Origin: Calothrix sp. MO_167.B12
GTDB taxonomy: Bacteria; Cyanobacteriota; Cyanobacteriia; Cyanobacteriales; Nostocaceae
DNA: 11,916 bases
Direction: 5' to 3'
NCBI GenBank assembly: GCA_030066045.1
Contig: JASJCJ010000244.1
Span: forward strand, 1 to 11,916
Part shown: piece after piece, positions 421 through 11,916 of the stretch
How the letters are laid out: each line of letters starts with the position of its first letter
Position numbering within the stretch: the first letter of the stretch is position 1
Translations under genes and position numbers: made by a program
The notes under the pieces: model-generated
The model's database searches: none
What the model was told of the DNA's origin: nothing
Seen by the model: the letters and a program-made list of their open reading frames with translations, nothing else

Positions 421-1524
421 TTGATTGCACAAAAGAGATATTTGATTGTTATGAAATCTGTTACATCGATCTTTCCTGCACCAAAATCTCACTCTAATGG
501 TTCAAAACTAGATTTGATTAAACAGAGTATTGCTAATAAAGCAATGCCAATTTTATTGGTTTTATTATTACTAACTACTACAGCTTGTGGTGGTCAGAAT
601 TCTAAAATTAATAAATTAGAATCTGAGAAAAATGTAACTGAATTAGTATCTTTACTACAAAAGCAAGATTCTCTATCGCCACAGGCTGCTGAAGCACTGG
701 GTAATATTGGAGATAAGCAAGCTGTACAACCATTAATTACAGCTCTCGGTAATGAGGATAAAGCTATTCGTGAAAATGCGACTACAGCTTTAGGAAAAAT
801 TAAAGATACCCGTGCAGTCAAACCATTACTTACAACTTTAAAAGACAAAGTACCTAAAGTTAGAAATGCAGCCCAAACAGCATTAGCAGAAATTGCTAAA
901 ACTGATTCCAAGGTACTACAATCTTTAATGCCAGGATTGAAACAAATGAATCTTCCTTTGAGGGGAGTATTTACCAAAATTGGTACTCCGGCTGTGAATC
1001 CATTAATCAATGCACTCAAAGATAGTAATCCTGTGATGCGTTTAAATGCTGCTGCTATCTTAGGAAATATTGGCGATCGTAAAGCAATTGAACCCCTAAA
1101 ACAGAATTTAACTGATTGGTATTCCAACAAGTTTGTAGGACAAGCTTTAACAAAATTAAATTGGGAACCACAATCAGACGAGGATAAAATTCATTTCTTA
1201 GTTGCTCAGAAAAAAGGTGAGGAATTAAGACAAGATTGGGACATAACCAAAAAAGTTTTACTCCAAGATATTCAGTCAAAAAACTATCGCCAAATTCAAA
1301 ATGGTCTCTATGCATTTATTAATATTGGCGACAAAGATATTGTCAATGAACTAGTGAAAATTCTCGATACCAAAGGAAATAAAACTATGGCATTGGCTTA
1401 TCTAAATAGCCGTGAAGAGAACTTAGAAAATGCAGCGAGAAAATGGGCAAAACAACGTGGTTTTAGAATTGTAAAAGCGAAGAAAAACCAAACTGTACAA
1501 CCAGTAAAATGGGGTTCTTGGTAA
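421..1524 (+). CDS. HEAT-repeat protein (PBS lyase HEAT-like repeats), probably secreted or lipoprotein. ATG starts at 451 or 544 are more likely than the TTG at 421
   Basis: Repeated AxxALGxIGDxxAVxPLIxALxD modules (AAEALGNIGDKQAVQPLITALGNED, ATTALGKIKDTRAVKPLLTTLKD, AAAILGNIGDRKAIEPL). Hydrophobic MPILLVLLLLTTTACGG segment consistent with a signal peptide and lipobox-like Cys. Confidence 0.8.
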   Translation: MIAQKRYLIVMKSVTSIFPAPKSHSNGSKLDLIKQSIANKAMPILLVLLLLTTTACGGQNSKINKLESEKNVTELVSLLQKQDSLSPQAAEALGNIGDKQAVQPLITALGNEDKAIRENATTALGKIKDTRAVKPLLTTLKDKVPKVRNAAQTALAEIAKTDSKVLQSLMPGLKQMNLPLRGVFTKIGTPAVNPLINALKDSNPVMRLNAAAILGNIGDRKAIEPLKQNLTDWYSNKFVGQALTKLNWEPQSDEDKIHFLVAQKKGEELRQDWDITKKVLLQDIQSKNYRQIQNGLYAFINIGDKDIVNELVKILDTKGNKTMALAYLNSREENLENAARKWAKQRGFRIVKAKKNQTVQPVKWGSW

Positions 1525-2928: not shown

Positions 2929-3114
2929 ATGGACGGAATAATTAGGAAAGCGGCAGAAATCAAAGCACAGGGCTTGGCGATGCCAGATTTGGTAACACTG
3001 CAATTGGCAGGGCAGATGACCTTTGATGATTTACCAGATGACTTAAAAGAGAAAGTTACCGCAGTAAAGGAAGCAGCCAGTACAAAGATGATTGTCCAAC
3101 TTGGGAGGGGGTGA
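2929..3114 (+). CDS. Small hypothetical protein (61 aa) in a locally GC-richer island. Coding status is uncertain
   Basis: ORF MDGIIRKAAEIKAQGLAMPDLVTLQLAGQMTFDDLPDDLKEKVTAVKEAAS... has helical, non-repetitive composition. The frame is open from 2806 with no earlier ATG. The overlapping minus-strand ORF (2802-3140) looks like low-complexity junk. Confidence 0.25.
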   Translation: MDGIIRKAAEIKAQGLAMPDLVTLQLAGQMTFDDLPDDLKEKVTAVKEAASTKMIVQLGRG

Positions 3115-3367
3115 AGAGCACTCAAGATTCTGCCAAACAACAGAAACTAGGGGTTTGGGGTGGAAATCATCAGGAACCTTGGGCTTATAGAAAGGAGAAG
3201 AGGAGTAAGTGATGAAAGCTTTTGTGTACTCTTAGGAGCGAAGTGATCGAAAATTTGCGAGCTACTGAATGTCAATCAAAAAAATACATTGCTACACTGG
3301 AGGGTATAGTTCCGTAATTTTTACTATGACTTTATCGCAATTCAGTGTATAAATTGTATTAAAAAAC

Positions 3368-3570
3368 ATGAGTTTATCTGGTCAGCAGCGTAAAAGACTA
3401 CAAGATTTACAAGACAACATTGCCAAAGACGAAAAATTGCTCAAGGATTTTGAGGATGCATTGCGCTACGAGAAAGACCCTCGTGTCATAGCAGGATATC
3501 GCCGGGAGATTGAGCGACAGAGAGAGTCAATCACTCGCTACGAATCCGAAATGCGAGAACTACAACAAAA
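3368..3570 (+). other. Copy 1 of the shared N-terminal coiled-coil module (domain-level annotation)
   Basis: 3423-3531 is ~95% identical at nucleotide level to 8090-8198. Confidence 0.7.
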
Positions 3571-4255
3571 ATTGACAAGGGAACCATCTACTCAAATGCG
3601 AATGCAGGAGTTGGATGACAATACTAAACCTCTGTATGTTCTCTCAATACCCGTTACGAATCATAAAGAAGAGGAAAATCAAGATACAAAAATTAACTAT
3701 CCAATTGATAGCAAAGACAAGACACAACACTCGTCAAATCCTACAGATACTGAAGTAGAAACATATATCGAAAGAGGTATTGACTATACTCAACTACAAG
3801 AGTATATATCATCAGGTAAATGGAAGAAAGCTGACCAGGAAACAACTAGAGTTATGCTTGAAGTAGCTAACAGGCAAGAAGAAGGTTGGCTACGAAGTAA
3901 GGATATTGAACAGTTATCCTGCTCAGAACTCTGCAGAATAGACCAACTCTGGGTTAAATACAGCAACGGTCGGTTTGGTTTTAGTGTGCAAAGGCATATC
4001 TGGCTTAGCCTTGGTGGTCAACCAGGTAAATTCAATTTCACTGTCTTCTGTAAGTTTGGCAATCGCGTAGGTTGGCGAGTTAACAATGACTGGTTAGAAC
4101 AATACGATCAATTCACCTTTGCCTCTGATGCTCCAAAGGGACATCTCCCATCTTTGAGATTACCAGGTTCGGAGAAGGAAGCTAATTGGTGGGATTTGTG
4201 GCAGAAAAGCTTCAGAGGCTTGTTGCTTCGCATGGAAGATTGCTCATTAAGTTAA
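3368..4255 (+). CDS. Two-domain protein: N-terminal ~60-aa coiled-coil module (shared with the 8048 and 8738 genes), S/T/D-rich linker, and a C-terminal GUN4 (tetrapyrrole-binding) domain
   Basis: C-terminal region WKKADQETTRVMLEVA...SCSELCRIDQLWVKYSNGRFGFSVQRHIWLSLGG...VGWRVNNDW...FASDAPKGHLPSL matches the GUN4 core signature (W..AD..T...L..........PC.DL..ID.LW...S.G.FGFSVQ..IW...GG...W.....W...L.F...AP.GHLP). N-terminal KDEKLLKDFEDALRYEKDPRVIAGYRREIERQRESI is repeated in neighbouring genes. Confidence 0.85.
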   Translation: MSLSGQQRKRLQDLQDNIAKDEKLLKDFEDALRYEKDPRVIAGYRREIERQRESITRYESEMRELQQKLTREPSTQMRMQELDDNTKPLYVLSIPVTNHKEEENQDTKINYPIDSKDKTQHSSNPTDTEVETYIERGIDYTQLQEYISSGKWKKADQETTRVMLEVANRQEEGWLRSKDIEQLSCSELCRIDQLWVKYSNGRFGFSVQRHIWLSLGGQPGKFNFTVFCKFGNRVGWRVNNDWLEQYDQFTFASDAPKGHLPSLRLPGSEKEANWWDLWQKSFRGLLLRMEDCSLS

Positions 4256-4580: not shown

Positions 4581-7529
4581 ATGAAATACTTAACAGTTTA
4601 CTTAAGATTAGCTATATTAATAGGTTGTGGGACAATAAATGCTGCTTTCGCTACAGGAAATACCAAAGCACAAACATTAGTGGCACCACAAGCTTCAACA
4701 GTAGTATTCAGCGAAATTTCAACTACAGCTAAATCACTAAAGATTAACCAACAGAGTCTATCTCATCAAAGTATACAACTAATGGCAATTCCCCAGAGTC
4801 AACCTTATATATTGGCTCAAGCAAGTAAAGGTGGAGAGAATGGAATCATTTGGATAGTTTTGTTAAGTGGAGTTGCGATCGCAGGAATCACGATTGTTTG
4901 CCAGAAAGGGGTGATTGTGATTGGTAAGAACGAAGTTGGCATTGTCTACAAAAAATTTGCCCCTTTTCGCGGTTCTCTCCCTGCCGATAAACTGATTGCC
5001 CTGAATGGAGAAGCGGGTTATCAAGCTGATACTCTTTCATCTGGTTTGCATCTCTGGTATTGGTCCTGGATGTACCAAATTCGTAAGGAACCAGCGATTG
5101 ACATTCCCCATGGGGAAATTGGTCTTGTCATTGCTAAAGATGGGCAACCAATCCCCCGCCAACGAATGTTAGGTAAAGTGATTGATGAGTGTAAAGATTT
5201 TCAAGATGGACATGGGTTTTTAAAGCACGGGGGTCAAAAAGGTAAGCAAATGGCTATCCTGACTACAGGAAGCTACCGTATTAACACTGAATTATTTACT
5301 GTGATTACTGCCGCCAATGCCACTAAGCATGGAATGAAGCCCGAGCAATTGAAAGTATATAAAGTGGAACCTAACAAAGTTGGTATTGTTACTACATATG
5401 ATGGTAAGCCAATTGAAGGTGAAATTGCTGGTTCAATTATTCATGATAATGAAAACTTCGTAAATGGAGAGAAGTTTATTAATGGGGGTGGGCAACAAGG
5501 CTTACAAGAAGAGTTGCTTCCTGTAGGTGAATGGAACTTAAATCCCTGGTTTGTGCAGGTTAAGCAAGTACCAGTGACAGAAATTCCCAATGGCTATGTT
5601 GGAATTATTAAATCCTATGTGGGAAAAACTCCTGAAAAGATTACTGGCACTGCTTCTTATCAAGGTGATTTGGTTGAAGATGGGTACAAAGGGATTTGGA
5701 AAACTCCCCTACGACCTGGCAAGTATGCTATTAACACAGAGGTGCAAAAAATAGAGCAAATACCTACTGATAATATTGTGCTGAAATGGTCAAACCAAAC
5801 CCAGTCTAAATACTATAGACATCTGCCTGCATTGAAGGTGCAAGATCAAGATGGATTTAAATTTGATGTAGAGGTAACACAGTTCATTCGCGTGAATCCC
5901 GAAGATGCCCCCAAGATGCTTTGCAGTGTAGGTTCCATAGATCAGCTAATAGACGAAGTTTTAAAGCCAACGGTCAGCCATTACTTTCTCACTGCTGCCC
6001 AATATTATGAGGCACTGGAATTTCAGAATAATCGTACTGACTTACAAGAAAGCGCGAAACAGGCTATCAAAACAGCCCTCAGTATTCACAATGTTCAAGC
6101 AATTGACACGTTGATTGGTGAAATTGACTTGCCCGATAAGTTAACTGAACATTTGATACAACGCAAGATTGCTCAGCAGGAAAAGGAAAAACTGAAAGTG
6201 GAAACATCATTAGAAGAGGAACGCCAAAATCATATTATAGCCAAGGAGACGGCACAAACAAGGGTTGAGGTAACTAAACATCAACTGAAGAGGGAGATTT
6301 TTGAACTAAATCGTCAAGAGAAACTAAACCAACAAAAAGCACAACAAGAGTTGAAGCGGCTGGCTCGTGAATCTGAAATAGAGGCGCGTCGTAGGCAAGC
6401 AGAAGTAGATGCACTATCTAAGCGACTGATAAGTCAAGTGGATATAGAAGACCTTCGCAAGAGAAAAGAGATAGAAGCAGACTTGAAGCAACTCCTGGGA
6501 GAAGCTGATGTAGATGTACTTGCCAAGACGCTGGAAGTCCTCGGTTCAGAAACATACACAGATATAGAAAAGAGCAAGATATTGGCAGAGGCACTGGGCA
6601 ATATCAAGGTGCCATTGGTACCGCAGACAATAAATTCTTTTGGCACTAGTCCTTATGGATCAATGGATTTCTTACAAGCAAATCCCCTTGGGTTGATGGT
6701 AACGCAGTTATTGCAGCAAGTAAGTCAGCAAAATCCCAACCAGCAACTTAGCAGTTCACCGTCAACACCTGTACTTCCTCAAACCCAGGTTAATTGTCCC
6801 AAGTGTGGATCTAAAAATCCAGAAACCAACAATTTCTGTAATAAATGTGGCACTGGACTAAATCAGCAGCTTTTCACTCACTCTCTATCTGAACCACGTT
6901 GCCCAGTTGTACTGCTTCTCGATACATCCAGTTCTATGTCGAGTGAATGTATCAATCAATTAATTGAAGGGATCGTTACTTTTCAACAGGAGTTAATGCA
7001 AGATACTGTAGCTTCCCGTAGTATTGAAGTAGCTATGATAACATTCGGTGACTCTGCCCAGGTAGTCCAAGACTTTACAATTGTTGAAAGTTTATCACCA
7101 CCTAAGCTTGTAGCAAATGGTATAAGTGCTATGGGTCAGGGGATTGAATTAGCGCTCAACGAGCTGGAGAGTCGCAAAGTTACTTACAAAAACAATGGCA
7201 TTCAGGAGCATCCAGCTTGGATGTTCTTGGTTGCAGGTAGTACTCCTAGCGACAATTGGAAAAATGCAGCAAGAAGTCTCAGAGAAGCTTTTGACAATAG
7301 CAAATTAATTTTCTTTACAGCAGTGGCTGTTCAAGGTGCAAACATGGATATTCTCAATCACATTGCTCCCAGCGATCCACCAGTAATGCTTAATGAATTG
7401 AAGTTTCAGGAATTGTTCCACTGGCTAGCTGATTCTCTAAAGAGAGTTTCCAGTAGCAAAGTAGGTAGCAGTACTAAGCTTCCACCCATCACACAGTGGG
7501 CAAGGATAGATGGGCTTTATCGGCAATAA
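4581..7529 (+). CDS. Large membrane protein: flotillin/YqiK-like SPFH (band 7) domain + long coiled coil + C4 zinc ribbon + C-terminal TerY-like von Willebrand A (vWA) domain. Alternative start ATG at 4782
   Basis: TM helix IIWIVLLSGVAIAGITIV, then an extended SPFH-like region (GIVYKKFAPF...GLHLWYW...IPHGEIGLVIAKDG... through ...SVGSIDQLIDEVLKPTVSHYFLTAAQYYEALEF...). E/R/Q/K-rich heptad coiled coil (LEEERQNHIIAKETAQTRVEV...EIEARRRQAEVDALSKR). CPKCGSKNPETNNFCNKCG zinc ribbon (6795-6851). vWA with MIDAS motif VVLLLDTSSSM...ITFGDSAQVV...GISAMGQGIELA...MFLVAGSTPSD (6900-~7390). Confidence 0.85.
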   Translation: MKYLTVYLRLAILIGCGTINAAFATGNTKAQTLVAPQASTVVFSEISTTAKSLKINQQSLSHQSIQLMAIPQSQPYILAQASKGGENGIIWIVLLSGVAIAGITIVCQKGVIVIGKNEVGIVYKKFAPFRGSLPADKLIALNGEAGYQADTLSSGLHLWYWSWMYQIRKEPAIDIPHGEIGLVIAKDGQPIPRQRMLGKVIDECKDFQDGHGFLKHGGQKGKQMAILTTGSYRINTELFTVITAANATKHGMKPEQLKVYKVEPNKVGIVTTYDGKPIEGEIAGSIIHDNENFVNGEKFINGGGQQGLQEELLPVGEWNLNPWFVQVKQVPVTEIPNGYVGIIKSYVGKTPEKITGTASYQGDLVEDGYKGIWKTPLRPGKYAINTEVQKIEQIPTDNIVLKWSNQTQSKYYRHLPALKVQDQDGFKFDVEVTQFIRVNPEDAPKMLCSVGSIDQLIDEVLKPTVSHYFLTAAQYYEALEFQNNRTDLQESAKQAIKTALSIHNVQAIDTLIGEIDLPDKLTEHLIQRKIAQQEKEKLKVETSLEEERQNHIIAKETAQTRVEVTKHQLKREIFELNRQEKLNQQKAQQELKRLARESEIEARRRQAEVDALSKRLISQVDIEDLRKRKEIEADLKQLLGEADVDVLAKTLEVLGSETYTDIEKSKILAEALGNIKVPLVPQTINSFGTSPYGSMDFLQANPLGLMVTQLLQQVSQQNPNQQLSSSPSTPVLPQTQVNCPKCGSKNPETNNFCNKCGTGLNQQLFTHSLSEPRCPVVLLLDTSSSMSSECINQLIEGIVTFQQELMQDTVASRSIEVAMITFGDSAQVVQDFTIVESLSPPKLVANGISAMGQGIELALNELESRKVTYKNNGIQEHPAWMFLVAGSTPSDNWKNAARSLREAFDNSKLIFFTAVAVQGANMDILNHIAPSDPPVMLNELKFQELFHWLADSLKRVSSSKVGSSTKLPPITQWARIDGLYRQ
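4875..4882. repeat. HIP1 octamer GCGATCGC (cyanobacterial highly iterated palindrome)
   Basis: Exact GCGATCGC. A second exact copy lies at 11788-11795, and a 7/8 copy at 1074-1081. Confidence 0.6.
6900..7390 (+). other. vWA domain (TerY-like, intact MIDAS DxSxS) within the 982-aa protein
   Basis: LLLDTSSSM ... FGDSAQ ... AxGxTxxG-like GISAMGQG ... VAGSTPSD spacing typical of vWA folds, immediately preceded by a zinc ribbon as in TerY-family vWA proteins. Confidence 0.7.
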
Positions 7530-7885
7530 AAGTCATGCCTGTGGAACATTCGTCTGAAAATCGATTTTCCCTATTTTACTCTTTAGCGGCTATTTGCCGC
7601 TCACGAAAATTTGGGTTTAGCGTACAAAAGCAAATCTATTGTGACGTGGGTGGCAAGCCAGGAAAATATAGCTGGGAAACGTTCGTTAGCTTTGCAGAGC
7701 AAGTGGAGTGGAAAGTAGGGGACAAATGGCTGGGCTATGATGAACTGTGTTGGGACTTACGAGGAGTACGTGGACACATACCCCTGTGGGTTACTGGAGG
7801 ACTAGCAGTTGATGCGGATACAAGGGTAGTAGTGTGTGGATGGGCAGTGGGGTTGTTCTCTCGCACAGAGACTTGTAGACTCTAA
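7496..7885 (+). CDS. GUN4-like domain protein, N-terminally truncated relative to a full GUN4 core (stand-alone fragment or remnant). Likely start is ATG 7535, 5 nt after the upstream stop. The GTG at 7496 overlaps the upstream gene
   Basis: RKFGFSVQKQIYCDVGGKPGKYSWETFVSFAEQVEWKVGDKWLGYDELCWDLRGVRGHIPLW aligns with the second half of the GUN4 domain of the 3368 gene (GRFGFSVQRHIWLSLGGQPGKFNF...VGWRVNNDWL...FASDAPKGHLPSL). Confidence 0.6.
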   Translation: MGKDRWALSAIKVMPVEHSSENRFSLFYSLAAICRSRKFGFSVQKQIYCDVGGKPGKYSWETFVSFAEQVEWKVGDKWLGYDELCWDLRGVRGHIPLWVTGGLAVDADTRVVVCGWAVGLFSRTETCRL

Positions 7886-8047: not shown

Positions 8048-8734
8048 ATGACTAACCAAAGACTAAAAGATTTGGAAGATAGCATTACCAAAGACGAAAA
8101 ATTGCTCAAAGATTTTGAGGATGCATTGCGCTACGAGACAAACCCTCGTGTCATAGCAGGATATCGCCAGGAGATTGAGCGACAGAAAGAGTCAATCGCT
8201 AGTCACAAATCTGAGTATGTTGAACTGAAACAGGAATTAGCTGGGGAACCATCTGCTCAAATACAACTGCAAAAAGTAGAGAACCAATTGCAGCAGATGG
8301 ATAATAAAATAAACATTTTACTTAGTGGTCAGGTTGCTATTTATGCAGATATCAATGATATGCGTCTAGCCCTGTTAAAACGCTACGATGCCTCGGAACG
8401 AACCATAATTGGTGCTATTGCCCAGCAGTTAAATCAAAATCAATTAGTTTTGACACAACAGTTGTTGGATGCAGTAGAAAACAATCAAGTATCAGAACCA
8501 CAAATGCAACAGATGTTGGCAGTATTAGAAGATAAAATTCCTTCTCTACCTCCTAGTCAATTAGCCGCTATAGAGATTATAAAAGACCCCCAGTTTGATG
8601 CTAAACATAAACTAAAAGTAAGTCTACCAATTATACCAATGCTTGTAGAGTATGAAGGTGAATTAGAGTTAGGAAGTGGTTTTAATATCAAGTCTGCTTG
8701 GGAACATTTGGTAGCGAAGTTACGAAGGAAATAA
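8048..8734 (+). CDS. Protein with the shared N-terminal coiled-coil module fused to an uncharacterised all-helical Q/L-rich C-terminal domain
   Basis: N-terminus KDEKLLKDFEDALRYETNPRVIAGYRQEIERQKESI is near-identical to 3368-gene residues 20-55. The C-terminal ~150 aa have no motif I recognise. Confidence 0.75.
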   Translation: MTNQRLKDLEDSITKDEKLLKDFEDALRYETNPRVIAGYRQEIERQKESIASHKSEYVELKQELAGEPSAQIQLQKVENQLQQMDNKINILLSGQVAIYADINDMRLALLKRYDASERTIIGAIAQQLNQNQLVLTQQLLDAVENNQVSEPQMQQMLAVLEDKIPSLPPSQLAAIEIIKDPQFDAKHKLKVSLPIIPMLVEYEGELELGSGFNIKSAWEHLVAKLRRK

Positions 8735-9355: not shown

Positions 9356-10400
9356 CTATTGCCAATTTCCCACCAACACATAGGGCGCCCAAAAGTGAGG
9401 GTGATTATACTTTTCATCTGTCAACAGAGTTAGCTGTGCTTGTTGCAATACTTGAGCTTTATTGTTCTGAGTGGTTTTAGCTTCACCTAACTGACGATAA
9501 AATTCACTCATGATTTTAGCAGTACTTTCATCTGCTACAGGCCAAAGTGTCGCTAAGGTGCTACGCGCTCCTGCTCGCACCGCTACCCCAGCTAATCCCA
9601 AAGTAGCTCTTTTGTCTCCACTAGCAGTCTCACAGGCACTGAGAACTAATAATTCAATGGCTCTGGGTTGATTCAGGGTTTTATCTCGCAGTAAATTATC
9701 CAATTGCTTGACATTAATACGTCTATCCCAGGAGAGTATAAAAGTATCCTCTGCTTTAGAACTAAACTTGGCATGGGTAGCTAGATGAACTATGGGAAAA
9801 CGAAAATCACTAATCTCTTGTTGTACAGTGTTAGTGGTAAATTTCTTATTTAGAAGTGGTTGACCAGATAATCCAATTTTCTGGATTTGTTCTAGTTCCG
9901 ATGGTACATTAGGTAATGGGTTAAAACCTTGATGTGCGGGTAAGTCTTTGCGAATTTCACTGAGTCCTGCTGTTAAAGCTTTGAAATTTATTGCTGTTAG
10001 TGGTTTTGGGTTTACCAACTGTAAACCAGGTGTCAAGGCAATGGCATACTTTTCTAATAGATACTGCTTGCCATCGTGCAGAACAGCCATAGGAATATTC
10101 CGCAAGTCTCCATCTAAAACAAAAGCTACAGTCTTGACTTTACTATTTGCCAACTGTTTTTCTACTGGTCTAATTAACCAATTATACAGCTTTTGGTATT
10201 TGGGCAAAAAATATTTCTCTCTACTTATAGGTTTTAAAAGAGAACCCTGTACTTCCCCTACAGTATTTTCCAACTCTGATTGAGAAATTTTAGTACTGTA
10301 AAGCTGGGGAGGTTGATTAGGTAAACTGAGCAGAATTTCTAACCTATCTTTCAAGATAATTGGATAAATAACTGCTGCGTTTTTATCAATTTGATCGATT
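9356..10400 (-). other. CHAT peptidase domain portion of the TPR-CHAT protein (domain-level annotation)
   Basis: His and Cys catalytic motifs as above. AVIYPIIL...VAFVLDGDLRNIPMAVL upstream is typical of CHAT domains. Confidence 0.7.
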
Positions 10401-11916
10401 TGTTGGGGTTTTGCGTCTACACAGGCTTCTCGGAAAAAGTTGTTGATTTCTGCTAATTGCAAAGATTCAATTACATTACGGGCTTGAGTTAGTAATTTAT
10501 GACTTTCTTTCTCTTTTCCTGCGGTTTTTAAGAAACGAGCATATTCTAAATCTAATTGAACCAACTGGCGATATATTGGTTCAACATTATCCCGGAAAGC
10601 AAACTGTACCTCTGGGTTGACTGCGACTAAATCACCTCGTAATGATTGTAGGGAATCATAGGCTTTGGTATAGGCAGCAATAGCATCAGGAATATCGTTT
10701 TGGGCTTTACGTATGCGTCCCAACTGCCAGAAAAACTGGTAGGCGATGTGTGGTGATTCCAAATTTGAAGCTAAACTCAAAGCCTGTTTAGTCAATTGTT
10801 CTGCTTGGGATAAATTCTGCCTGGAACTACTCAGTTCATAGAGTCTACCGCGAAATCCTAATGCATAAGCTTGTGCCGCTTTATCTTCAAAACTCCTAGC
10901 TTGTGCTAATGCTTGGACTAAAATACTGTCAATTTCGTTAAAACTTGGTAGTTGAGAATTACCAGTGAGATTAAAATTTTCGGTTTGAGCTAATTTGACC
11001 AAACTTTGGGCAAAGTTTATTTGTAGGTAAACTGTTGTGCGACTGGGAGGCAAACTATTGAATTGAGACTTGATATCTTGCCATAATTGTGATGCCTCTA
11101 AAGTTTTTTTCCGTTTTAGTAACAAGCTGAGTTGATTCAATTTTGCTTGTTGTCTGGTGGTTGGAGATGTAGACAGCTTAATTACATGACTGTAAGAATC
11201 CAAAGCAGTTTGTTGATAATTCTGCCTTTGACGACGAATGGTTTCGCTTTCAGCCAAGGCTTGGGCTGTGTTACCCAGGGCGAGATAAACAGCAGCCTCT
11301 TGTTGGGGATAATTCAATTTTTGAACTACTTTTAAACTAGTTTCCAAGACCATTTTGGACTGTTCTAATTGACCTACAGATTGCAGTATGTTACCCAAAC
11401 TTGTCAATCCTAATACTACAGTAATAGGGGGAGAACTAGTTTCAATTTGTTGCAGCTTTGTGGTTAATTCTTCTGAAGTTAACCTGCCTAACTCTTGACA
11501 ATTTTCTAATTGTAATTGTGTCTTTAAGGCTTCAAGTACAGTATTACAAGCACGGGGATAAAAACCCAAATCTTGCATTGCTTGTGCTTGATTAATTTTA
11601 CTTTGAGTAACCTGGGAAGAATTTTTAATTTGGCTATAGATTTTCGTAGATTCTTGCCATGTCTGTAAAGCATCTGCCGACTGTCCAATTTCCCGTTGCA
11701 AGTATCCCTGAATATCTAAAGAGTTAGCCAAAATTCTCAACTGTTCTTGCTTCTGGGGTTGGGTTTTGAGTATTTTTAAACTATCTGCGATCGCATTTTT
11801 TGCTGATTCCCACTTGCCTAGTTTTTGATAAGTTAGGGACAGATTACTCAATGCCATTGCTTGGTTTAAGCTATCCTGTTGGGCAGCATAAGCTGCCGCC
11901 GTATCTTTCCATACAA
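9356..11916 (-). CDS. TPR-repeat + C-terminal CHAT (caspase-like HetF-associated with TPRs) protease-domain protein. 5' end (N-terminus) lies beyond the window edge
   Basis: Minus-strand ORF stays open past 11857 to the window edge (…VWKDTAAAYAAQQDSLNQAMALSNLSLTYQKLGKWESAKNAIA). Multiple TPR-like helical repeats. CHAT core near the C-terminus with catalytic dyad context HLATHAKF (rc at ~9763-9790) and LVLSACETASG (rc at ~9609-9637), followed by LGLAGVAVRAGARSTLATLWPV. Confidence 0.85.
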   Translation of the reverse strand, partial: VWKDTAAAYAAQQDSLNQAMALSNLSLTYQKLGKWESAKNAIADSLKILKTQPQKQEQLRILANSLDIQGYLQREIGQSADALQTWQESTKIYSQIKNSSQVTQSKINQAQAMQDLGFYPRACNTVLEALKTQLQLENCQELGRLTSEELTTKLQQIETSSPPITVVLGLTSLGNILQSVGQLEQSKMVLETSLKVVQKLNYPQQEAAVYLALGNTAQALAESETIRRQRQNYQQTALDSYSHVIKLSTSPTTRQQAKLNQLSLLLKRKKTLEASQLWQDIKSQFNSLPPSRTTVYLQINFAQSLVKLAQTENFNLTGNSQLPSFNEIDSILVQALAQARSFEDKAAQAYALGFRGRLYELSSSRQNLSQAEQLTKQALSLASNLESPHIAYQFFWQLGRIRKAQNDIPDAIAAYTKAYDSLQSLRGDLVAVNPEVQFAFRDNVEPIYRQLVQLDLEYARFLKTAGKEKESHKLLTQARNVIESLQLAEINNFFREACVDAKPQQIDQIDKNAAVIYPIILKDRLEILLSLPNQPPQLYSTKISQSELENTVGEVQGSLLKPISREKYFLPKYQKLYNWLIRPVEKQLANSKVKTVAFVLDGDLRNIPMAVLHDGKQYLLEKYAIALTPGLQLVNPKPLTAINFKALTAGLSEIRKDLPAHQGFNPLPNVPSELEQIQKIGLSGQPLLNKKFTTNTVQQEISDFRFPIVHLATHAKFSSKAEDTFILSWDRRINVKQLDNLLRDKTLNQPRAIELLVLSACETASGDKRATLGLAGVAVRAGARSTLATLWPVADESTAKIMSEFYRQLGEAKTTQNNKAQVLQQAQLTLLTDEKYNHPHFWAPYVLVGNWQ
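11788..11795. repeat. HIP1 octamer GCGATCGC
   Basis: Exact GCGATCGC inside the TPR-CHAT gene. Confidence 0.6.

What the first reader, a model, noticed from the sequence alone, without database searches (positions are those of the whole stretch)
3790..4200. GUN4 porphyrin-binding domain in a non-canonical fusion (coiled-coil module + linker + GUN4), with a second GUN4 paralogue in the same locus
Canonical GUN4 regulates Mg-chelatase and binds protoporphyrin IX/Mg-Proto. Here the GUN4 core (FGFSVQ...APKGHLP) is fused to the shared N-terminal module instead of the usual GUN4 N-terminal helical domain. A second partial GUN4 domain (7496-7885) sits immediately after the vWA gene. These are probably tetrapyrrole-sensing domains recruited as sensors or effectors in another pathway.
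Basis: partly seen in the sequence, partly recalled or inferred. Interest (0 to 1): 0.65.

Follow-up and report, generated by a model that had tools for sequence, protein, structure and literature searches.

The report
Adaptor-linked GUN4 paralogue beside Band7–vWA gene
The GUN4 domain is real, but it is a non-housekeeping GUN4 paralogue of an already described cyanobacterial class, attached by a small helical adaptor to a conserved GUN4/Band7–vWA gene module, and the "second GUN4" is a truncated remnant.

Summary
The 295-aa protein (3368-4255) has a GUN4 domain (Pfam E=1e-44, nt 3770-4156) and no GUN4_N domain. Its N-terminal ~60-aa helical hairpin (CC) recurs in the 228-aa protein at 8048-8734 (84% nt identity). 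The second GUN4 (7535-7885) is only the 3' half of a domain.

The closest homologue (88% identity) is EAD1+CC+GUN4; the window gene has lost the EAD1 segment in frame. This GUN4 clade lay directly upstream of a Band7(SPFH)-vWA gene in all 8 contexts examined. Its adaptors vary (EAD1, CC or both), and so do the downstream partners (DO-GTPases, or vWA-PP2C-kinase-GUN4).

The 228-aa protein is the constant partner of a two-gene cassette. In 27 of 32 genome loci it is followed by a CC-X gene, where X is FGE-sulfatase, TIR, a STAND NTPase, a periplasmic-binding domain, HEAT/ClpN or GUN4.

The hydrophobic palm of the pocket is kept (13/14 positions). The orthologue-specific LxNxLR motif, including Arg214, is not.

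GUN4 as a sensor or effector in cyanobacterial conflict systems is already published (Kaur et al. 2020, 2021). I could not find the CC/228-aa adaptor pair or the fixed GUN4-Band7-vWA pairing described. The window locus looks reduced. No function was tested.

The parts
3368..4255 (+). CC-GUN4 gene (295 aa). It is 100% identical to a 'GUN4 domain-containing protein' of the Calothrix sp. MO_167.B12 MAG.
3368..3403 (+). Residues 1-12 (MSLSGQQRKRLQ), the residual N-terminus of a lost EAD1 domain. The deletion junction lies here.
   Evidence: P0002 (88% identity, 397 aa) carries EAD1 (PF19955, E=4.5e-30) at residues 1-86. blastn shows that L002 has 306 extra nt here. In L002 that segment is flanked by the 12-nt direct repeat AAAAAACT(A/G)CAA.
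3386..3571 (+). CC module, a ~60-aa two-helix hairpin adaptor (residues ~7-68) of the p228-like type.
   Evidence: hmmsearch with a CC profile built from A1 gives E=2.7e-30. It is 84% nt identical to 8058-8271. The homologous hairpin in p228 is modelled as helices 2-29 and 33-63 with pLDDT 81-94.
3572..3769 (+). Polar, low-complexity linker (residues 69-134).
   Evidence: No family match. dN/dS against L002 is 0.67.
3770..4156 (+). GUN4 core domain (residues 135-263).
   Evidence: Pfam E=1.1e-44. PDB Gun4 structures match at E=1e-19 to 1e-21. 13 of 14 'greasy palm' positions stay hydrophobic.
4157..4252 (+). Clade-specific C-terminal tail (SLRLPGSEKEANWWDLWQKSFRGLLLRMEDCSLS). It replaces the LxNxLR loop and the alpha7/alpha8 helices of canonical Gun4.
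4581..7529 (+). Band7/SPFH - coiled coil - zinc ribbon - vWA protein (982 aa). It has an N-terminal hydrophobic segment that I read as a signal or membrane anchor (by eye, no predictor run). Band_7 lies at about nt 5580-6215, the Zn ribbon at 6795-6860 and vWA at 6906-7373, with the MIDAS motif DTSSS intact. It is the conserved partner of this GUN4 clade.
   Evidence: Pfam: Band_7 E=1e-22, VWA E=1e-7, Zn_Ribbon_1 E=3e-6. It is 40% identical over almost its full length to the Moorena homologue. It lies next to the GUN4 gene in 8 of 8 contexts.
7535..7885 (+). 5'-truncated GUN4 half-domain (116 aa; the ORF is open from 7496). It is probably the 3' remnant of a terminal X-GUN4 gene, such as a kinase-, caspase- or TIR-GUN4.
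   Evidence: Pfam covers profile positions 54-125 only. It has no relative closer than 39-60% identity, and homology starts at about residue 23. Its nearest relatives are multi-GUN4, caspase-GUN4 and TIR-GUN4 proteins. Its tail GLFSRTETCRL matches the LFSRVETCKL type. In L042 the operon ends with a Pkinase-GUN4 gene; L044 reaches the preceding PP2C gene before the locus ends.
8048..8734 (+). p228, a constant ~230-aa all-alpha protein with no Pfam or NCBIfam match. Its CC module lies at about nt 8048-8236. It is the first gene of the 'p228 -> CC-X' cassette in other cyanobacteria.
9356..11857 (-). TPR-CHAT (caspase-like) protein, convergent with p228 (928 aa in the full contig). It is listed as a neighbour only; no link to the module is established.
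   Evidence: Pfam CHAT E=2.5e-57. A 42%-identical CHAT gene also lies next to p228 in Calothrix MO_192.B10 (L003), but in none of the other genome loci (L004-L034) screened.

Best explanation
The 295-aa protein is a GUN4 paralogue, not the Mg-chelatase cofactor. It belongs to a specific clade that works with a Band7/SPFH-vWA scaffold protein, here apparently membrane-anchored.

The GUN4 domain is a small-molecule-binding module, most plausibly for a tetrapyrrole-like hydrophobic ligand. It is tethered by exchangeable N-terminal homotypic adaptors to other components. The adaptors are EAD1, a ~60-aa helical hairpin (CC), or both. In the window, the CC hairpin pairs it with the constant 228-aa protein that carries the same hairpin.

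In fuller versions of the operon, the module feeds an NTP- or phosphorylation-dependent switch. That switch is either three DO-GTPase-like proteins plus partners, or vWA-PP2C-kinase-GUN4. This organisation is typical of the regulated conflict/programmed-cell-death systems of multicellular bacteria.

The window locus is a rearranged, reduced derivative. EAD1 has been deleted in frame, the terminal GUN4-bearing gene is cut down to a half-domain, and no NTPase or kinase core is adjacent.

Shown: the domains, the shared module, the deletion, and the conserved gene pair and cassette. Inferred: ligand binding, adaptor-adaptor pairing, the Band7-vWA interaction, and the conflict function.
For: GUN4 domain and absence of GUN4_N.

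Nearest relatives. The hit list shows EAD1-GUN4, EAD7-GUN4, kinase-, caspase-, TIR-, CHAT- and trypsin-GUN4 architectures.

EAD1 deletion. P0002/L002 is 92.5% nt identical over 3.4 kb and has an extra 306-nt EAD1 segment flanked by a 12-nt direct repeat.

Conserved GUN4 -> Band7-vWA pair. It is present in the window, L002, L035, L037 (Moorena producens), L038, L041, L042 and L044. GUN4 domains are 55-91% identical to the window's, and the Band7-vWA proteins are orthologous.

Downstream partners. These are weak to borderline DO-GTPase1/2 matches (E=6e-7 to 6e-3) in L037, and vWA-PP2C in L042 and L044, followed by Pkinase-GUN4 in L042; L044 ends within the PP2C gene.

CC adaptor. The p228 family is 53-86% identical across many genera. 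In 27 of 32 genome loci it is followed 3-4 nt downstream by a gene whose first ~60 residues are the CC module, fused to Peripla_BP_6, FGE-sulfatase, TIR, NACHT/NB-ARC, HEAT/ClpN, TPR or GUN4. No other neighbour is conserved.

Selection. dN/dS of 0.36 (GUN4 domain) and 0.43 (Band7-vWA) against L002 argue against free decay.

Literature. GUN4 is a cyanobacteria-specific predicted sensor/effector in VMAP-ternary, iSTAND2/TERNS3, TRADD-N and NACHT systems. The EAD coupling principle is established, and Band7 is listed among the domains fused to vWA components (PMC7159879; PMC8195603; bioRxiv 2022.07.19.500537).
Against: No experiment bears on any component.

The key ligand-contact motif of true Gun4 is absent: LxNxLR, with Asn211 aligning to Arg264 and Arg214 to Gly267 in an ungapped extension. 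Tetrapyrrole binding is therefore not assured.

The window lacks MoxR, VMAP, DO-GTPase, GAP1, kinase and PP2C genes, so no recognised core system is present locally.

The Band7-vWA protein carries neither the CC nor the EAD1 adaptor, so how GUN4 would engage it is unknown.

Adjacent p228/CC-X pairs are not generally more similar to each other than non-adjacent ones (38% vs 34%). There is thus no co-evolution signal for a CC-CC interaction.

p228 has only a generic three-helix-bundle fold.

PADLOC has no model for p228 or for the Band7-vWA protein.
Confidence: 0.55

Rival explanations
1. The locus is a decaying remnant. The CC-GUN4 gene (EAD1 lost), the GUN4 half-domain and the displaced p228 gene are leftovers of a once complete system and no longer have a coordinated function.
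For: EAD1 has been deleted in frame. The second GUN4 is truncated, with a 22-residue unrelated N-terminus. The gene order is rearranged compared with p228 -> CC-GUN4 -> Band7-vWA in L035, L037 and L038. No GTPase, kinase or PP2C partner is nearby. dN/dS values are fairly high, at 0.36-0.67.
Against: All three full-length ORFs are intact. dN/dS stays below 1 for the GUN4 domain, Band7-vWA and p228. CC-GUN4 architectures without EAD1 exist independently in Moorena and in metagenomes (P0009, P0024, P0026), so EAD1 loss yields a known working architecture. The vWA MIDAS motif is intact.
Confidence: 0.2
2. The GUN4 domain is the effector rather than the sensor. Once released or concentrated at the Band7-vWA scaffold, it would bind free porphyrins or Mg-porphyrins. 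That would either block chlorophyll and haem supply or act as a light-driven singlet-oxygen generator that kills the infected cell.
For: GUN4 occupies the variable position that TIR, FGE-sulfatase and STAND domains occupy in other CC-X genes. Kaur et al. list it among effector-position domains. The hydrophobic palm of the pocket is conserved. That GUN4-bound protoporphyrin can photosensitise is from my own knowledge of the plant GUN4 literature and was not checked here.
Against: Arg214 and Asn211 are not conserved. The same variable position also holds clearly sensory domains such as Peripla_BP_6 and HEAT/TPR. The literature favours a sensor role. GUN4-like domains also occur in the non-phototroph Streptomyces clavuligerus.
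Confidence: 0.15
3. It is the housekeeping Gun4 (Mg-chelatase cofactor) of this organism with an unusual N-terminus.
For: It has a significant GUN4 domain, about 39% identical to solved Gun4 cores. I could not confirm a second, canonical gun4 in this MAG.
Against: There is no GUN4_N domain. The LxNxLR motif that marks orthologues is absent (PMC10156173). The nearest relatives are all multidomain paralogues. The closest homologue sits in a different upstream context, after hisIE, so the gene lies in a variable region. The adjacency is to Band7-vWA, not to chlorophyll genes.
Confidence: 0.03
4. It is part of a known anti-phage system, PD-T4-6, as the PADLOC hit suggests.
For: PADLOC model PDLC04062 'PD-T4-6' matches with E=2.4e-44.
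Against: The match covers only model positions 297-431, which are the GUN4 part. PDLC04062 is one of about 26 PD-T4-6 sub-models for Ser/Thr-kinase clusters, and it aligns end to end with cyanobacterial kinase-GUN4 proteins. The window protein has no kinase domain. Elsewhere, PD-T4-6 calls hit a kinase gene present in every Streptococcus thermophilus genome analysed (PMC11514479).
Confidence: 0.02

Closest known systems
EAD1-GUN4 and other adaptor- or effector-fused GUN4 paralogues of cyanobacterial conflict systems (Kaur, Burroughs, Iyer & Aravind 2020, eLife, PMC7159879; Kaur et al. 2021, PMC8195603)
   Same: A GUN4 core without GUN4_N, preceded by a small alpha-helical non-enzymatic adaptor that recurs in a neighbouring gene. 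It is found in filamentous cyanobacteria and linked to vWA-containing operons. The closest homologue actually carries Pfam EAD1.
   Different: The window protein has lost EAD1 and relies on a different adaptor, the CC hairpin. I found no mention of this adaptor in those papers, and it has no Pfam or NCBIfam model. The associated vWA protein is Band7-(ZnR)-vWA without MoxR or VMAP.
Canonical Gun4 / Ycf53 (Synechocystis sll0558, PDB 1Y6I/4XKB; T. elongatus 1Z3X)
   Same: The same domain family, about 39% identical. The FGFSVQ and GHLP motifs are kept, as are 13 of 14 hydrophobic 'palm' residues and Trp129/Leu130 of the alpha2/alpha3 loop.
   Different: There is no GUN4_N helical domain. LxNxLR is replaced by SLRLPG (Asn211 to Arg, Arg214 to Gly). 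The C-terminal tail differs. The genomic context is unrelated to chlorophyll synthesis.
EACC1/EACC2-type 'constant component + variable partner' two-gene systems (Kaur 2020, 2021)
   Same: p228 is a constant first gene followed by a gene with a highly variable domain set (TIR, STAND, FGS and others), in multicellular bacteria.
   Different: p228 is a soluble all-alpha protein, not a TM (EACC1) or alpha+beta (EACC2) module. The variable partner has no constant caspase domain. The two genes share an N-terminal hairpin.
TerY-P triad-like operons (vWA + PP2C phosphatase + Ser/Thr kinase) and DO-GTPase systems
   Same: Related loci continue with vWA-PP2C-(kinase-GUN4) (L042, L044) or with three DO-GTPase-like genes (L037).
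   Different: None of these genes is present in the window or in the rest of its 20-kb contig as far as it was read. The name 'TerY-P triad' is from my own knowledge and was not checked against a paper here.

Membership tests
GUN4 domain superfamily (Pfam PF05419) | Score above the Pfam gathering threshold over most of the model | tested here: met
   152.5 bits against a 29.2 cut-off, profile positions 3-125 of 141. The fragment at 7535-7885 scores 53.5 bits but covers only positions 54-125.
GUN4 domain superfamily (Pfam PF05419) | Hydrophobic 'cupped-hand' palm residues of SynGUN4 (F105, L116, V135, F138, L143, I146, W150, F160, V162, L166, W167, F174, L177, W178) | tested here: met
   13 of 14 align to hydrophobic residues. 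W178 aligns to G231, next to an 8-residue insertion (residue list from PMC1084334).
Gun4 orthologue (Mg-chelatase cofactor) | N-terminal GUN4_N helical domain | tested here: not met
   No such hit at E<=0.1. The N-terminus is a CC hairpin plus linker.
Gun4 orthologue (Mg-chelatase cofactor) | LxNxLR motif (Leu209, Asn211, Leu213, Arg214); Arg214 is essential for porphyrin binding | tested here: not met
   The window has GHLP-SLRLPG: L209 aligns to S, N211 to R264, and R214 to G267 by ungapped extension. The motif definition is from PMC10156173 and PMC1084334. A substitute arginine (R264, or R289 in the tail) cannot be excluded without a structure.
Gun4 orthologue (Mg-chelatase cofactor) | Binds ChlH and stimulates Mg-chelatase; is the single conserved copy in the genome | not testable with these tools
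   This needs biochemistry and the full MAG, and only the 20-kb contig was accessible.
EAD-coupled effector/sensor (Kaur et al. 2020) | A small non-enzymatic terminal adaptor with a second copy in a neighbouring gene | tested here: met
   The CC module occurs at 3386-3571 and at 8048-8236, 84% nt identical.
EAD-coupled effector/sensor (Kaur et al. 2020) | The same adaptor is fused to diverse effector or signalling domains across genomes | tested here: met
   CC-X genes have X = FGE-sulfatase, TIR, NACHT, NB-ARC-TPR, Peripla_BP_6, HEAT/ClpN or GUN4.
EAD-coupled effector/sensor (Kaur et al. 2020) | The cognate adaptor is also fused to a core-system component (vWA/VMAP/GAP1/iSTAND) | tested here: not met
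   The CC partner is p228, which has no recognised core domain. Band7-vWA has no CC or EAD1 match.
EAD-coupled effector/sensor (Kaur et al. 2020) | Match to a named EAD model (EAD1, PF19955) | tested here: not met
   There is no hit in the window protein even at E<=10. Only 12 residual residues remain. The closest homologue, P0002, has EAD1 at E=4.5e-30.
vWA-MoxR-VMAP ternary system | Adjacent MoxR AAA+ ATPase and VMAP genes | tested here: not met
   Neither appears among the window genes or in the contig as read.
DO-GTPase/GAP1 system | DO-GTPase gene(s) plus GAP1 | tested here: not met
   Absent from the window. Weak to borderline DO-GTPase1/2 matches occur only in the related loci L037 and probably L035 and L038.
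PD-T4-6 anti-phage system | Ser/Thr kinase domain | tested here: not met
   The PADLOC hit covers only the GUN4 part of sub-model PDLC04062.

The most novel reading that the evidence does not exclude
The ~60-aa hairpin and the constant 228-aa protein define a previously undescribed adaptor-based 'constant + variable' two-gene cassette of filamentous cyanobacteria. The GUN4 clade that is always paired with Band7-vWA is a ligand-gated trigger acting at a membrane microdomain scaffold, for example sensing phage- or stress-induced release of pigment intermediates. A conserved acidic C-terminal tail might engage the vWA MIDAS site.
Probability: 0.3. Interest if true: 0.65.

Novelty: new variant of a known kind. 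Interest (0 to 1): 0.45.

Why it matters
GUN4 is the only tetrapyrrole-binding fold specific to oxygenic phototrophs. Its many paralogues are predicted, but never shown, to link pigment status to cell-death or immunity modules. This locus points to two tractable experimental systems. One is a GUN4 clade with a fixed partner, Band7-vWA. The other is a simple two-gene cassette, p228 + CC-X, whose shared hairpin can be tested directly for pairing. If the predictions hold, they would show how photosynthetic multicellular bacteria couple metabolic or infection signals to regulated responses, and they would add a new adaptor to the EAD/Death-like repertoire. If they do not, the finding remains one more member of a catalogued paralogue class, sitting in a partly eroded locus.

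Tried and rejected
1. PADLOC 'PD-T4-6' hit. Rejected as evidence of defence. It is the GUN4 portion of one kinase-GUN4 sub-model among about 26.

2. Profile search with 28 type-B CC modules against the 5.8-billion-protein set. It returned only four short fragments, so there is no wider census of CC-X architectures.

4. Test for co-variation between adjacent p228 and CC-X hairpins. There is no general signal (38% vs 34%). Only the window, L025 and L035 GUN4 genes carry a near-copy of the neighbouring p228 hairpin (69-84%).

5. Conserved small ORF upstream of the GUN4 gene, including the weak ParG-like hit in L042. Not conserved.

6. Rfam scan and promoter/terminator scans. Nothing above background.

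7. Search for other conserved neighbours of p228. None found.

8. Search of the text of the two Kaur et al. papers (terms: coiled, hairpin, two-gene, SPFH, Band7), plus a library-wide search for p228 accession numbers. No description found. Their domain tables were not available as text, so absence is not proven.

9. Canonical gun4 in the same genome. This could not be tested.

10. CHAT protease as a partner. It is adjacent to p228 only in two Calothrix MAGs, so I did not include it in the system.
Full report
**Origin and gene content.** The window is part of a 20-kb scaffold of a Calothrix sp. MO_167.B12 metagenome-assembled genome. Its genes, in order, are:
- a HEAT-repeat protein (421-1524)
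- a fasciclin protein (2168-2752)
- the 295-aa protein of the finding (3368-4255)
- a 982-aa Band7/SPFH - zinc ribbon - vWA protein (4581-7529)
- a short GUN4-like ORF (7535-7885; open from 7496)
- a 228-aa protein with no family match, here called p228 (8048-8734)
- a convergent TPR-CHAT gene (9356-11857, minus strand)

**Check of the observation.** The GUN4 call is solid. Pfam GUN4 matches with E=1.1e-44 over residues 135-263, which is nt 3770-4156. Solved Gun4/GUN4 structures from Thermosynechococcus, Synechocystis, Chlamydomonas and Arabidopsis match at E=3.5e-21 to 1.6e-13, with about 39% identity over the core. No GUN4_N domain is found.

The N-terminal module is truly shared with p228. 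The two copies are 84% identical at DNA level over 215 nt and 69% identical at protein level over the module.

The second GUN4 is real but incomplete. It covers only profile positions 54-125 of 141. Its first ~22 residues resemble nothing, and its best relatives in 1.8 billion representative proteins are only 39-60% identical. It is a 5'-truncated half-domain that begins six bases after the vWA stop codon.

**What the 295-aa protein is.** Its closest homologue, P0002, is 88% identical and 397 aa long. Its architecture is EAD1 (PF19955, E=4.5e-30) + the same hairpin + linker + GUN4. The two loci are 92.5% identical over 3.4 kb of DNA, except that the window lacks 306 nt encoding EAD1. In L002 this segment is bracketed by the 12-nt direct repeat AAAAAACT(A/G)CAA, and the window keeps one copy. 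The window protein still begins with the EAD1 N-terminus, MSLSGQQRKRLQ. I infer an in-frame deletion in the window lineage.

Other relatives are EAD1-GUN4 without the hairpin (P0005, P0022, P0025) or hairpin-GUN4 without EAD1 (P0009, P0024, P0026). The adaptors are therefore interchangeable. More distant hits are the well-known kinase-, caspase-, TIR-, CHAT- and trypsin-GUN4 proteins.

**Conserved partner.** I examined 8 genomic contexts of this GUN4 clade. In all 8 the gene directly downstream encodes a Band_7-vWA protein. The contexts are the window, L002, L035, L037 (Moorena producens), L038, L041 (a TARA ocean-metagenome contig), L042 and L044. The window protein is 40% identical to the Moorena one over almost its full length.

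What follows the pair differs between loci:
- In L037, and apparently in L035 and L038, there are three DO-GTPase-like proteins, two unknown proteins and a vWA protein.
- In L042 and L044 there is a small vWA protein followed by a PP2C phosphatase. L042 then ends with a kinase-GUN4 gene; L044 stops within the PP2C gene.

The second arrangement gives a simple explanation for the window's half-GUN4. It would be the 3' end of a terminal X-GUN4 gene left behind by a deletion. Consistent with this, its tail GLFSRTETCRL is of the type seen in kinase- and caspase-fused GUN4 domains. This is an inference.

**The shared hairpin and p228.** p228 belongs to a ~230-aa family that is 53-86% identical across Nostoc, Calothrix, Scytonema, Tolypothrix, Moorena, Symploca, Dolichospermum, Timaviella and others. 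It has no Pfam or NCBIfam model.

In 27 of 32 loci from one-genome-per-species contigs, p228 is followed 3-4 nt later by a gene whose first ~60 residues are the same kind of hairpin. The rest of that gene varies:

| Variable part (X) | Number of genes |
|---|---|
| Peripla_BP_6 | 6 |
| FGE-sulfatase | 5 |
| TIR | 4 |
| HEAT with or without ClpN | 3-4 |
| STAND NTPases (NACHT, NB-ARC-TPR, AAA_16) | 3 |
| GUN4 | 3 |
| TPR | 1 |
| No recognisable domain | some |

No other neighbour is conserved. In L035, L037 and L038 the cassette p228 -> CC-GUN4 sits directly in front of Band7-vWA. In the window, p228 lies after the module instead.

The hairpins of CC-X genes form a distinct subtype, 30-40% identical to that of p228. 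Adjacent pairs are not generally more alike than non-adjacent ones. The exceptions are the window, L025 and L035, where the GUN4 gene carries a near-copy of the neighbouring p228 hairpin.

This layout matches the 'effector-associated domain' coupling principle and the constant/variable organisation that Kaur et al. described for conflict systems of multicellular bacteria. I did not find this hairpin or p228 in their text.

**Pocket residues.** I used the HMMER alignment to Synechocystis Gun4 and the residue lists of Verdecia et al..
- 13 of 14 'greasy palm' positions remain hydrophobic, and Trp129/Leu130 are kept.
- The alpha6/alpha7 loop motif LxNxLR is not kept. Rockwell and Lagarias use this motif to separate orthologues from paralogues. 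Leu209 aligns to Ser, Asn211 to Arg264, and by ungapped extension Arg214 aligns to Gly267 and Arg217 to Lys270.
- Instead, the clade has its own tail, SLRLPG...FLSR(x)E(x)C. Most paralogues end in (F/L)(L/F)SRVETC(K/R)L or LLSRRDL.

The fold, and probably a hydrophobic ligand cleft, are therefore retained. The canonical porphyrin/bilin contacts are not. GUN4-like domains also occur in a TIR protein on the Streptomyces clavuligerus megaplasmid. That argues against a role strictly tied to chlorophyll.

**Mechanism.** My best reading (confidence about 0.55) has four elements:
- a ligand-binding GUN4 paralogue
- tethered by homotypic helical adaptors (the CC hairpin to p228; ancestrally also EAD1 to another partner)
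- working with an oligomerising Band7-vWA scaffold that appears to be membrane-anchored
- feeding, in complete operons, a GTPase or kinase/phosphatase switch

This fits the published prediction that GUN4 domains monitor pigment status in immunity or cell-death systems.

The window version is reduced and rearranged. Its genes are still intact and under moderate constraint: dN/dS is 0.36 for the GUN4 domain, 0.43 for Band7-vWA and 0.31 for p228.

The rivals are a functionless remnant (0.2), GUN4 as an effector rather than a sensor (0.15), housekeeping Gun4 (0.03) and the PD-T4-6 defence system (0.02). The last is excluded because the PADLOC hit covers only the GUN4 portion of a kinase-GUN4 sub-model.

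**Novelty and verdict.** Non-canonical GUN4 fusions and their assignment to conflict systems are already in the literature (PMC1262709, PMC5756287, PMC7159879, PMC8195603). As far as I could check, three things are new:
- the CC hairpin/p228 adaptor pair
- the invariant GUN4-Band7-vWA pairing
- the specific history of this locus (EAD1 deletion, truncated terminal GUN4)

I rate it a new variant of a known kind, with interest 0.45. The main untested points are whether a canonical gun4 exists elsewhere in the MAG, what ligand the domain binds, and whether the hairpins interact.

Noticed in passing
window 8048-8734; loci L003-L034: The 228-aa protein is the constant first gene of a widespread cyanobacterial two-gene cassette. 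The second gene starts 3-4 nt downstream with a related ~60-aa helical hairpin. It carries a variable domain: FGE-sulfatase, TIR, NACHT/NB-ARC, Peripla_BP_6, HEAT/ClpN or GUN4. Neither the protein nor the hairpin has a Pfam or NCBIfam model.
   Followed up: yes
window 3368-3405 vs L002 4618-4960: The window gene lacks the 306-nt EAD1-coding segment present in its 92.5%-identical relative. In that relative a 12-nt direct repeat, AAAAAACT(A/G)CAA, flanks the segment. This suggests an in-frame deletion by short-repeat recombination.
   Followed up: yes
L042 8990-13204; L044 6408-11681: Some Band7-vWA partners of this GUN4 clade are giant proteins (1404 and 1757 aa) with three to four tandem SPFH-like segments. 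They are followed by a separate small vWA protein and a PP2C phosphatase, and in L042 by a kinase-GUN4 gene.
   Followed up: partly
L037 13569-16323 (Moorena producens): Three consecutive small GTPase-like genes, with weak to borderline Pfam DO-GTPase1/2 matches, follow p228 -> CC-GUN4 -> Band7-vWA. Two unannotated proteins (674 and 364 aa) and a vWA protein come next. This may be a cyanobacterial DO-GTPase-type system with an unrecognised GAP1 equivalent.
   Followed up: partly
window 9356-11857 (-) and L003 2938-5358 (+): A TPR-CHAT (caspase-like) gene lies next to p228 in two Calothrix MAGs (42% identity), in different orientations. It is not next to p228 in any of the other genome loci (L004-L034) screened. 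Beyond the window, the contig continues with a large TPS/PPC (haemagglutinin-like) gene.
   Followed up: partly
PADLOC model PDLC04062, matched by window 3368-4255 and 7535-7885: One of about 26 'PD-T4-6' sub-models is in effect a kinase-GUN4 profile. Any GUN4 domain, with or without a kinase, scores E<1e-40 against it. This is a likely source of false 'defence system' calls in cyanobacteria.
   Followed up: yes
C-termini of GUN4 paralogues (e.g. window 4220-4252 and 7850-7882): Most paralogue GUN4 domains end in a conserved tail, (F/L)(L/F)SR(V/I)ETC(K/R)L or LLSRRDL, preceded by a Gly/Trp-rich stretch of variable length. Canonical Gun4 has nothing like it. The invariant Arg, the acidic residue and the Cys are unexplained.
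   Followed up: partly
plasmid hits H14-H20 (Streptomyces clavuligerus megaplasmid): A TIR-domain protein of a non-photosynthetic actinomycete contains a GUN4-like domain (31% identity, E=1e-12). The domain is therefore not confined to cyanobacteria and plastids.
   Followed up: no
window 421-1524 and 2168-2752: A HEAT-repeat (PBS-lyase-type) protein with an N-terminal hydrophobic segment and a fasciclin-domain protein lie upstream. The closest relative of the GUN4 locus (L002) has hisIE there instead, so the left boundary of the module is near 3100-3360.
   Followed up: no
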